In this document: positions 13,790 through 14,025 of the stretch, in pieces
How positions within the stretch are numbered: position 1 is the stretch's first letter
Layout of the letters: the number at the start of each line of letters is the position of its first letter
NCBI RefSeq assembly: GCF_022045235.1
Contig: NW_027266268.1
Span: 37,262,001 to 37,326,000 of the forward strand
DNA length: 64,000 nucleotides
Origin: Haliotis cracherodii
Taxonomy: Eukaryota
Reading direction: 5' to 3'
Program-made: the position numbers and the translations under genes
Notes under the pieces: model-generated
Told to the model about the DNA's origin: nothing
The model's database searches: none
Seen by the model: the letters and a program-made list of their open reading frames with translations, nothing else

Positions 13790-14025
13790 GACCCCAGGGG
13801 ATTCCGGGTTAGAATTGATCCCCAGCAACCTATGCTGGTCTGAAGAGGCAGCCAAATGGATCGGGTGATCAGATTCGGTGACTTGGTTGAAAGCATTTCC
13901 TGGTACCCCCGACGGCGTAGATCGTTGCTCACAATATAGATCACTGGATTGTCTGGTCCAAATTTCATTATTTACAGGCCTACGTTATATGGCTGGAATA
14001 TTGCTGAGTGTGGCGTTAAACAAGG
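13790..14025 (+). mobile_element. SINE-like family D copy (diverged)
   Basis: Homologous body and tail. Confidence 0.7.

What the first reader, a model, noticed from the sequence alone, without database searches (positions are those of the whole stretch)
13790..13870. Headless SINE family D begins with a covarying pseudoknotted RNA structure
Seen: family D has no tRNA A/B boxes and starts CCCGT-GAAGATC-CGGGGTAGAATA-GGTCTTC-AGCAACCC-..TTGTC-GTAAGA-GGCGA-CTA-ACGGG. Predicted pairings are CCCGT/ACGGG, GAAGAT/GTCTTC, loop GGGT/ACCC (pseudoknot) and TTGYC/GGCGA. Copies covary: here GGGGAT/ATCCCC replaces GAAGAT/GTCTTC; at 31868 GGGTAG/CTACCC; at ~28000 GGGTT/AACCC. Some copies (23645, 62088) break a helix. 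Known: several non-LTR elements use 5' self-cleaving ribozymes to release their RNA from host transcripts. The fold does not fit HDV, hammerhead, twister or pistol as I read it. Inference: candidate new ribozyme or RT-recognition structure.
Basis: partly seen in the sequence, partly recalled or inferred. Interest (0 to 1): 0.7.

Follow-up and report, generated by a model that had tools for sequence, protein, structure and literature searches.

The report
Virus-shared pseudoknot heads SINEs and LINEs
The head of this jumping-gene family is a conserved RNA element of about 70 letters, predicted to fold into two pseudoknots and also found at the front of a long retrotransposon and behind the last gene of some RNA viruses, that likely marks the RNA's start by blocking the cell's 5'-to-3' RNA-degrading enzyme rather than by cutting itself.

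Summary
The SINE matches the mollusc 'LP-SINEs' of PMC4758252, whose LINE-derived head was proposed to be a promoter. Across 20 diverged heads, covariation supports two H-type pseudoknots in tandem plus a hairpin (helices 85-97% paired). Rfam has no match. The motif also lies in the 3' UTR of four RNA viruses, once in tandem, and at the 5' end of an intact two-ORF LINE of this genome whose tail resembles the SINE's. Older LINE subfamilies begin at the motif. Younger ones gained an HDV-like ribozyme directly upstream: 56 of 60 copies start at its G1 and keep the motif. An efficient self-cleaver or internal promoter at the motif would have shed that ribozyme. Best reading (0.5, untested): a new class of exonuclease-resistant RNA that sets the element's 5' end from host read-through transcripts. 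Rivals: new ribozyme 0.17, translation element 0.15. An in vitro Xrn1 assay beside a cleavage assay would decide.

The parts
13790..14030 (+). SINE copy (subfamily 2, older) with structured head, body and LINE-like tail; 3' end approximate
13790..13864 (+). Structured head (predicted tandem pseudoknot motif)
   Evidence: (63.4 bits; this copy is in the model)
13792..13808 (+). Helix S1: 13792-13795 pairs with 13805-13808; one-base loop L1 at 13796
   Evidence: 76 of 80 cells paired; best pair only E about 3 under the tree-aware null
13797..13823 (+).
   Evidence: 125 of 140 cells paired, two pairs at E<0.05
13809..13816 (+). Loop L3 with the conserved AGAAT
13824..13836 (+).
   Evidence: 58 of 60 cells paired, the two strongest covarying pairs
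13829..13860 (+). Helix S4 (second pseudoknot): 13829-13833 pairs with 13856-13860
   Evidence: 84 of 99 cells paired, one pair at E=0.02; register set by hand; weak in three viral rows
13838..13852 (+). Hairpin S5 (family form GTCG/CGAC, loop TA-N-R-AGG); damaged in this copy
31865..32110 (+). SINE copy, subfamily 1 with duplicated S5 hairpin
23385..23647 (-). SINE copy, subfamily 1
8259..8521 (-). SINE copy, subfamily 1
11017..11317 (+). SINE copy with several tandem repeats of the S5 hairpin unit
22346..22608 (-). SINE copy, subfamily 1
27760..28018 (-). SINE copy, subfamily 1
62086..62335 (+). SINE copy, S2 broken
48445..48631 (+). Degenerate SINE copy
51861..52085 (+). SINE copy with deletions in the head
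26986..27126 (+). Internally deleted SINE copy (head start joined to tail half)

Best explanation
The SINE head is a conserved RNA element, predicted to fold as two tandem pseudoknots with a hairpin, that likely acts as a block to 5'-to-3' exoribonucleases (Xrn1/Xrn2) and so would set and protect the 5' end of the element's RNA. Inferred steps: the promoter-less copy is transcribed inside a host polymerase II transcript; decay from the 5' side stops at the base of helix S1; the surviving unit-length RNA is reverse-transcribed through its LINE-like tail. In viruses the same fold would leave a 3' subgenomic RNA. In the younger LINE an added HDV-like ribozyme would make the end, with the motif as a second barrier. 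Shown from sequence: helix covariation, the sharp 5' boundary, the three genomic settings, and co-inheritance with the ribozyme.
For: (1) RNA-level selection: 5 of the 6 pairs at E<0.05 under a tree-aware null lie in S2, S3 and S4. Scallop heads in PMC4758252 suppl. Fig. S2, not used to build the model, fit S2, S3 and S4 by inspection. Two tandem copies in one virus differ by compensatory S2 changes. (2) Sharp 5' end 0-2 nt before S1: 8 of 15 TSD-bearing copies (of 31 full-length) start exactly 7 nt before the first G of S2. Two metagenome SINE families lose conservation at the same place (12 and 9 copies). Class 3 xrRNAs stop Xrn1 at the base of their first helix (PMC12397905 passages). (3) Four RNA viruses carry it 6, 11, 74 and 101 nt behind the last long ORF seen, one in tandem, the kind of site xrRNAs occupy (PMC12397905, PMC10520033). 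(4) 8 of 12 endonuclease-bearing LINE loci, found by a protein family search, carry the motif right behind an HDV-like ribozyme. TSDs are flush with HDV G1 in 5 of 7 checked, and 56 of 60 young copies start there. Older subfamilies mostly lack the ribozyme (19 of 30 and 22 of 23 loci) and those with an intact head begin at the motif. S2 went on changing in compensatory fashion among ribozyme-bearing subfamilies.
Against: No functional data. Small-RNA reads were too few to show ends (3/25/2 and 3/21/0 reads). [quoted passage not shown] A coremin xrRNA stalls scanning ribosomes (PMC10520033 passages), which is awkward upstream of LINE ORF1. Three SINE families start with a purine, which this model does not predict, although the old LINE heads start with pyrimidines. 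Only 2 of 60 young LINE copies start at the motif, and neither had a verifiable TSD. S1 covariation is not significant and S4 is weak in three viruses. Registers were set by hand to fit the fold.
Confidence: 0.5

Rival explanations
1. A self-cleaving ribozyme of a new class that cuts just 5' of S1 and is slow or switched off when an HDV-like ribozyme stands upstream.
For: The 5' end of non-LTR elements is a known site for HDV, hammerhead and twister ribozymes, and linear RNA viruses also carry ribozymes in their UTRs (PMC13725137 passages and section 13). Size (~70 nt), pseudoknots and conserved loops fit what PMC10085705 expects of ribozymes. The boundary is sharp.
Against: The upstream HDV-like ribozyme is inherited in 56 of 60 young LINE copies while the motif stays conserved. 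The letters at the boundary are not conserved: G or A in SINEs, C or T in old LINE heads, mixed in viruses. No known ribozyme core recurs across heads. Cutting off a +RNA virus 3' end would be costly (inference). The viral ribozymes in PMC13725137 are mostly in 5' UTRs.
Confidence: 0.17
2. A cap-independent translation element (ribosome or eIF binder) that serves uncapped virus and LINE RNA and that SINEs keep in order to reach the LINE's nascent reverse transcriptase.
For: It sits in 3' UTRs of tombus-like viruses, a group known for 3' translation enhancers (PMC10520033 passage). It lies behind a ribozyme-made, uncapped 5' end upstream of LINE ORF1. It is fused upstream of tRNA heads in some SINEs.
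Against: It does not by itself explain why SINEs and old LINE subfamilies start exactly at it. No 3'CITE family matched in Rfam.
Confidence: 0.15
3. A structure bound by the LINE's own proteins to finish 5' integration, like the 5' pseudoknot of R2 elements.
For: Retention of the complete head in many copies. R2Tg binds a pseudoknotted RNA (PMC12222951, start of abstract in listing).
Against: The same motif is in RdRP viruses where no reverse transcriptase ORF was seen and, per PMC4758252, in both Nimb and RTE LINEs.
Confidence: 0.08
4. An internal DNA promoter, as proposed for LP-SINEs in PMC4758252.
For: It replaces the tRNA head; three SINE families start with a purine.
Against: Helix covariation, occurrence in RNA viruses, and start of young LINE copies 57 nt upstream at HDV G1. 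No excess of an extra G before the start that would hint at a cap (weak).
Confidence: 0.07

Closest known systems
LP-SINEs (Hdi_LP/Hmi_LP and kin) and the ~70-bp head of Nimb-17_LMi, I-3_DR and RTE-9_CPB (PMC4758252)
   Same: LINE-derived ~70-nt head in place of a tRNA head, TSDs, ~255 bp length. The scallop head printed in its suppl. Fig. S2 is the same motif.
   Different: In the parts I read the paper proposes a promoter, gives no structure for the head, mentions no viruses and calls the partner LINE unidentified. Here a fold, viral copies and a candidate partner LINE with an upstream HDV-like ribozyme are added.
xrRNA classes 1 and 2 (flaviviruses), class 3 (Tombusviridae/Solemoviridae) and coremin
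   Same: Compact pseudoknotted RNA near stop codons in viral 3' UTRs; boundary at the base of the first helix.
   Different: No three-way junction as in classes 1 and 2. Not a stem-loop whose apical loop pairs with the 3' end as in class 3. No 4-bp YGAD hairpin. It occurs in host retrotransposons. Resistance is untested.
HDV-like ribozymes of retrotransposons
   Same: A double pseudoknot at the element's 5' end; a hairpin followed by an A-rich linker and a final pairing strand recalls P4-J4/2-P2.
   Different: No P3/L3 and no P1.1; different helix order; no Rfam match. A true HDV-like ribozyme sits just upstream in the LINE (Rfam RF02682, E 0.0015, below gathering).
Twister, pistol, hammerhead (including non-circular permutations), hairpin, twister-sister, hatchet
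   Same: Size and conserved loops; twister and hammerhead occur in retrotransposons and RNA viruses.
   Different: No Rfam hit; recalled core motifs are not shared across the seven sequences tested.

Membership tests
LP-SINE (PMC4758252) | ~70-nt LINE-derived head instead of a tRNA head | tested here: met
   No A/B boxes in 5 of 5 copies; same motif at the 5' end of a LINE and in the paper's scallop alignment
LP-SINE (PMC4758252) | Variable TSDs and 3' tandem repeats | tested here: met
   15 of 31 full-length copies with TSD of 8 nt or more; CAAA-type repeats
LP-SINE (PMC4758252) | Sequence identity with the Hdi_LP/Hmi_LP consensus | not testable with these tools
   Fig. 3 is not held and supplement file 1 was not searched; only the length of 255 bp was seen
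xrRNA (functional class) | Blocks Xrn1 in vitro with a defined stop site | not testable with these tools
   Needs an assay; small-RNA reads were uninformative
xrRNA (functional class) | Ring around the 5' end | not testable with these tools
   No RNA 3D prediction was available
xrRNA class 1/2 | Three-way junction with double pseudoknot; Rfam flavivirus xrRNA models | tested here: not met
   Different helix order; only a 12-bit antisense hit against a gathering score of 50; none on viral loci
xrRNA class 3 | P1-P2 stem-loop whose apical loop pairs with the 3' end | tested here: not met
   The fold differs from the description in PMC12397905
coremin xrRNA | 4-bp hairpin with YGAD or YGNNAD loop, 8-10 nt spacer, second hairpin | tested here: not met
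   The S5 loop is 7 nt TA-N-R-AGG and follows a pseudoknot; definition from PMC10520033
HDV-like ribozyme | Nested double pseudoknot with P3/L3, P1.1 and G1 | tested here: not met
   The motif has no P3/L3 and no Rfam hit; the separate upstream element in the LINE does match
Twister / pistol / hammerhead / hairpin / twister-sister / hatchet | Family covariance model and conserved catalytic core | tested here: not met
   recalled core motifs not shared across heads (crude test)
Self-cleaving ribozyme (any class) | Site-specific self-cleavage | not testable with these tools
   Indirectly disfavoured
tRNA-derived SINE | A and B boxes in the head | tested here: not met
   0 of 211 motif heads examined have an HDV P3/L3-like string upstream either

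The most novel reading that the evidence does not exclude
A new structural class of exoribonuclease-resistant RNA, shared between +RNA viruses and animal retrotransposons, that lets LINEs and SINEs dispense with a promoter or ribozyme by having host exonucleases carve their 5' end out of read-through transcripts. It would be a third way, besides internal promoters and self-cleavage, for a retrotransposon to make its RNA.
Probability: 0.45. Interest if true: 0.92.

Novelty: new variant of a known kind. Interest (0 to 1): 0.78.

Why it matters
PMC4758252 left open what the LP head does and which LINE moves these SINEs. This work gives a covariation-supported fold, a candidate partner LINE, and a natural experiment (the LINE lineage before and after gaining an HDV-like ribozyme) that argues against both the promoter and the efficient-ribozyme readings. 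If the element blocks Xrn1, it is a new xrRNA fold and one encoded in host genomes, for which my search listed no precedent by title or abstract start. It would also be an RNA module shared by viruses and transposons. If it cleaves, it is a new ribozyme class. One gel with Xrn1 and a cleavage control separates these.

Tried and rejected
Single-strand folding was uninformative: pseudoknots are not modelled, and z-scores were +0.2 to -2.4 for five heads. A scan on the first pseudoknot alone gave 20 loci, of which only the two already known contigs had S2 paired. Prokaryote genomes: of 120 loci (scan covered 47 of 64 parts) only L390 and L432 score as the motif (39 and 60 bits, rest 20.6 or less). 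L390 ends in the same LINE-like tail and both look like animal DNA in metagenome bins. No match in the phage collection. Relatives of two viral RdRPs: one new contig, L677, with no motif hit and probably lacking its 3' UTR. Sequencing runs: no RNA holder listed; small-RNA reads too few to show ends. Contig loose ends only restate the DNA boundary. L579/L635, a variant head, led to no LINE ORF. TSDs for the two motif-start young-set LINE copies could not be verified. Readthrough signal rejected: the spacing to the stop codon is 6-101 nt. Earlier findings of this scan: none. Literature searches. Only PMC4758252 turned up as describing this head; I saw listings only for most hits, and subscription journals and Repbase Reports are not covered.

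Full report
OBSERVATION. The stretch at 13790 is the head of a ~250-bp SINE. A blastn with the 31866 copy found 28 segments in the window. A covariance model later found 12 hits at E<=0.02, i.e. 11 head-bearing copies. The genome G000 (1.18 Gb) gave 3207 first-look candidates for one head and 765 exact matches to a 31-nt pattern; both are lower bounds. There are no A/B boxes in 5 of 5 copies, against a positive tRNA-SINE control. The 13790 copy belongs to an older subfamily whose GGGGATT/GRTCCCC is a true compensatory form of GAAGATC/GRTCTTC. Rfam has no gathering hit on any head and only chance-level hits at E<=10 on two heads.

WHAT IS KNOWN. PMC4758252 (passages, section 10, supplement search and part 1 of 5 of supplement file 4) describes mollusc LP-SINEs. 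Their first ~70 bp are shared with the 5' ends of Nimb-17_LMi, I-3_DR and RTE-9_CPB. It proposes a promoter, notes the L1Tc ribozyme precedent, and in the parts I read gives no structure for the head and no partner LINE. The scallop heads in its Fig. S2 carry the same motif. Its Fig. 3 and supplement file 1 were not available, so identity of this family with Hdi/Hmi_LP, and a mollusc origin of the window, are inferred.

THE FOLD. Pattern scans found the motif far outside molluscs. Metagenomes gave 121 loci, with about 5700 stretches estimated from 2 of 64 parts scanned; most look like animal SINE-type repeats. Five viral contigs, four distinct viruses, also carry it. The first H-type pseudoknot has S1 (4-5 bp), a one-base loop, S2 (7 bp) and a loop ending in AGAAT. 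The second has S3 (3-4 bp) and S4 (4-6 bp), and its last loop holds hairpin S5 and an A-rich linker. On a plain MAFFT alignment of 17 rows, S1+S2+S3+S5 are 86.9% paired with 11 of 17 pairs changed on both sides. On a hand-registered alignment of 20 rows (representatives picked by hand, one or a few per family, degenerate copies left out), S1-S5 are 76/80, 125/140, 58/60, 84/99 and 77/80 paired. Under a tree-aware null of my own, 5 of the 6 pairs at E<0.05 lie in S2, S3 and S4; S1 reaches only E about 3. Loop invariance in that set is partly built in by my patterns. Two checks are less biased. The five viral hits of the hairpin-only scan with T before and TAA after all have AGAATA and S2. In 31 LINE copies found by protein family or by a downstream pattern, the S5 loop varies as TA-N-R-AGG. 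A one-base loop across a 7-bp stem is the usual H-type geometry (recalled).

THREE SETTINGS. (a) SINEs. 15 of 31 full-length own-genome copies have a TSD of 8 nt or more, and 8 of these 15 begin exactly 7 nt before the first G of S2, i.e. 1-2 nt before S1. Two metagenome families lose conservation at the same position (12 and 9 copies). None of 211 heads examined has an HDV-like P3/L3 string upstream. (b) RNA viruses. These are a tombus-like virus with RdRP_3 and a nodavirus-type capsid, a contig with a Peptidase_A21 capsid, a GDD-type RdRP contig and a 934-aa protein with no Pfam match that by eye has permuted RdRP motifs (my reading). The motif starts 6, 11, 74 and 101 nt behind the last long ORF seen. 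One virus has two tandem copies that differ by compensatory S2 changes. (c) A LINE in this genome. A search with PF14529 led to 12 fetched loci, 11 of them two-ORF elements. Eight carry the motif some 400-600 nt before the ORF1 frame. ORF2 has endonuclease, RT and RNase H domains, so it is an I-group element; 'Nimb-like' is inferred from the paper. Its 3' tail aligns with the SINE tail above 200 shuffles in 5 of 6 comparisons for the three motif-bearing LINEs tested, and in 0 of 2 for a motif-less LINE family. Prokaryote genomes yield only two true hits among 120 loci, both resembling animal DNA.

THE DISCRIMINATING OBSERVATION. The intact LINE does not start at the motif. It starts 57 nt upstream with an HDV-like ribozyme: P1, P2, P3, L3 and J4/2 are readable, and Rfam RF02682 matches at E 0.0015, below its gathering score. 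Its last base abuts S1. TSDs are flush with G1 in 5 of 7 loci. Of 60 copies fetched by queries lying at or behind the motif, 56 start at G1, two a few bases in, and two at the motif's edge. In older subfamilies the ribozyme is absent from 19 of 30 and 22 of 23 loci (some of the latter are rearranged or tandem), and those with an intact head begin at the motif with a pyrimidine. So the ancestral LINE likely began with the motif, a younger branch added a ribozyme in front, and S2 kept changing in compensatory fashion afterwards. If the motif cut itself at its edge, or directed transcription from there, the ribozyme would be lost in one round of copying.

MECHANISM. What is needed is an RNA-level function that can define a 5' end without destroying or bypassing upstream sequence that is otherwise protected, and that is useful in a viral 3' UTR. 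A block to 5'-3' exonucleases fits all three settings. PMC12397905 (introduction and passages) describes xrRNAs as compact pseudoknots that trim RNAs to a fixed end, with class 3 stopping Xrn1 at the base of the first helix. A ribozyme-made 5'-OH end is a poor Xrn1 substrate (recalled), which would let both modules persist. Against this reading: nothing here measures resistance; plain pseudoknots do not stall Xrn1 (PMC10321173 abstract); a coremin xrRNA stalls scanning ribosomes (PMC10520033 passages); the purine start of three SINE families is unexplained; and small-RNA reads were too few to show ends. I put it at 0.5. A new ribozyme gets 0.17; ribozymes do occur in retrotransposons and in linear RNA viruses, mostly in 5' UTRs (PMC13725137 passages and section 13). 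A translation element gets 0.15, protein recognition 0.08 and a promoter 0.07.

MEMBERSHIP AND NOVELTY. The SINE is a likely member of a described kind. The motif fails the structural tests for xrRNA classes 1-3, coremin, HDV-like and the other ribozyme families, so it may work like an xrRNA without being a member of a described class. PMC10085705 (passages) concerns permuted hammerheads and does not describe it in what I read. Ten literature searches turned up only PMC4758252 for this head; the library lacks most subscription journals.

Noticed in passing
L742:1762-1818 (G000:C4 near 934661) and many copies: An HDV-like ribozyme at the 5' end of a young, abundant I-group LINE with intact ORFs (536 exact matches to a 20-nt 5' UTR pattern). 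My Nimb-plus-ribozyme search listed only PMC4758252.
   Followed up: partly
window 4100-4256, 8079, 24002-24060, 29603, 44341, 47040, 54955-55026: tRNA-headed SINEs; those seen share the LINE-like tail with the motif-headed SINE, and the 4119 copy's tail aligns with the same LINE.
   Followed up: partly
window 31865-31960 and most of L001-L030: The commonest subfamily has a duplicated S5 hairpin. In 34 copies the second stem is perfect in 29, while the first is never the family form (sample biased by the query).
   Followed up: partly
L140:741-900 and related metagenome loci: The motif is fused directly upstream of a tRNA-like head, as in the scallop SINEs of PMC4758252.
   Followed up: no
G000:C23:27097893-27100529; G000:C5:32895834-32896259; L013; L120: Tandem arrays and head-to-head duplications built from pieces of the motif.
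   Followed up: no
L390, L432: Motif-headed SINE-like sequences inside prokaryote genome bins, probably host DNA contamination.
   Followed up: partly
L159:1489-1563: A 28.7-bit partial match in a bacterial-looking intergenic region; probably chance, since the locus was selected on the loop strings.
   Followed up: no
L031:252-3056 (-): 934-aa viral protein with no Pfam match; by eye its RdRP motifs are in permuted order.
   Followed up: no
window 18296-20419, 28225-28947, 34245-35378, 9127-9891: Long minisatellite-like repeats that give spurious long open frames.
   Followed up: no
L652:1680-1750: An antisense copy of yet another motif-headed family in this genome.
   Followed up: no
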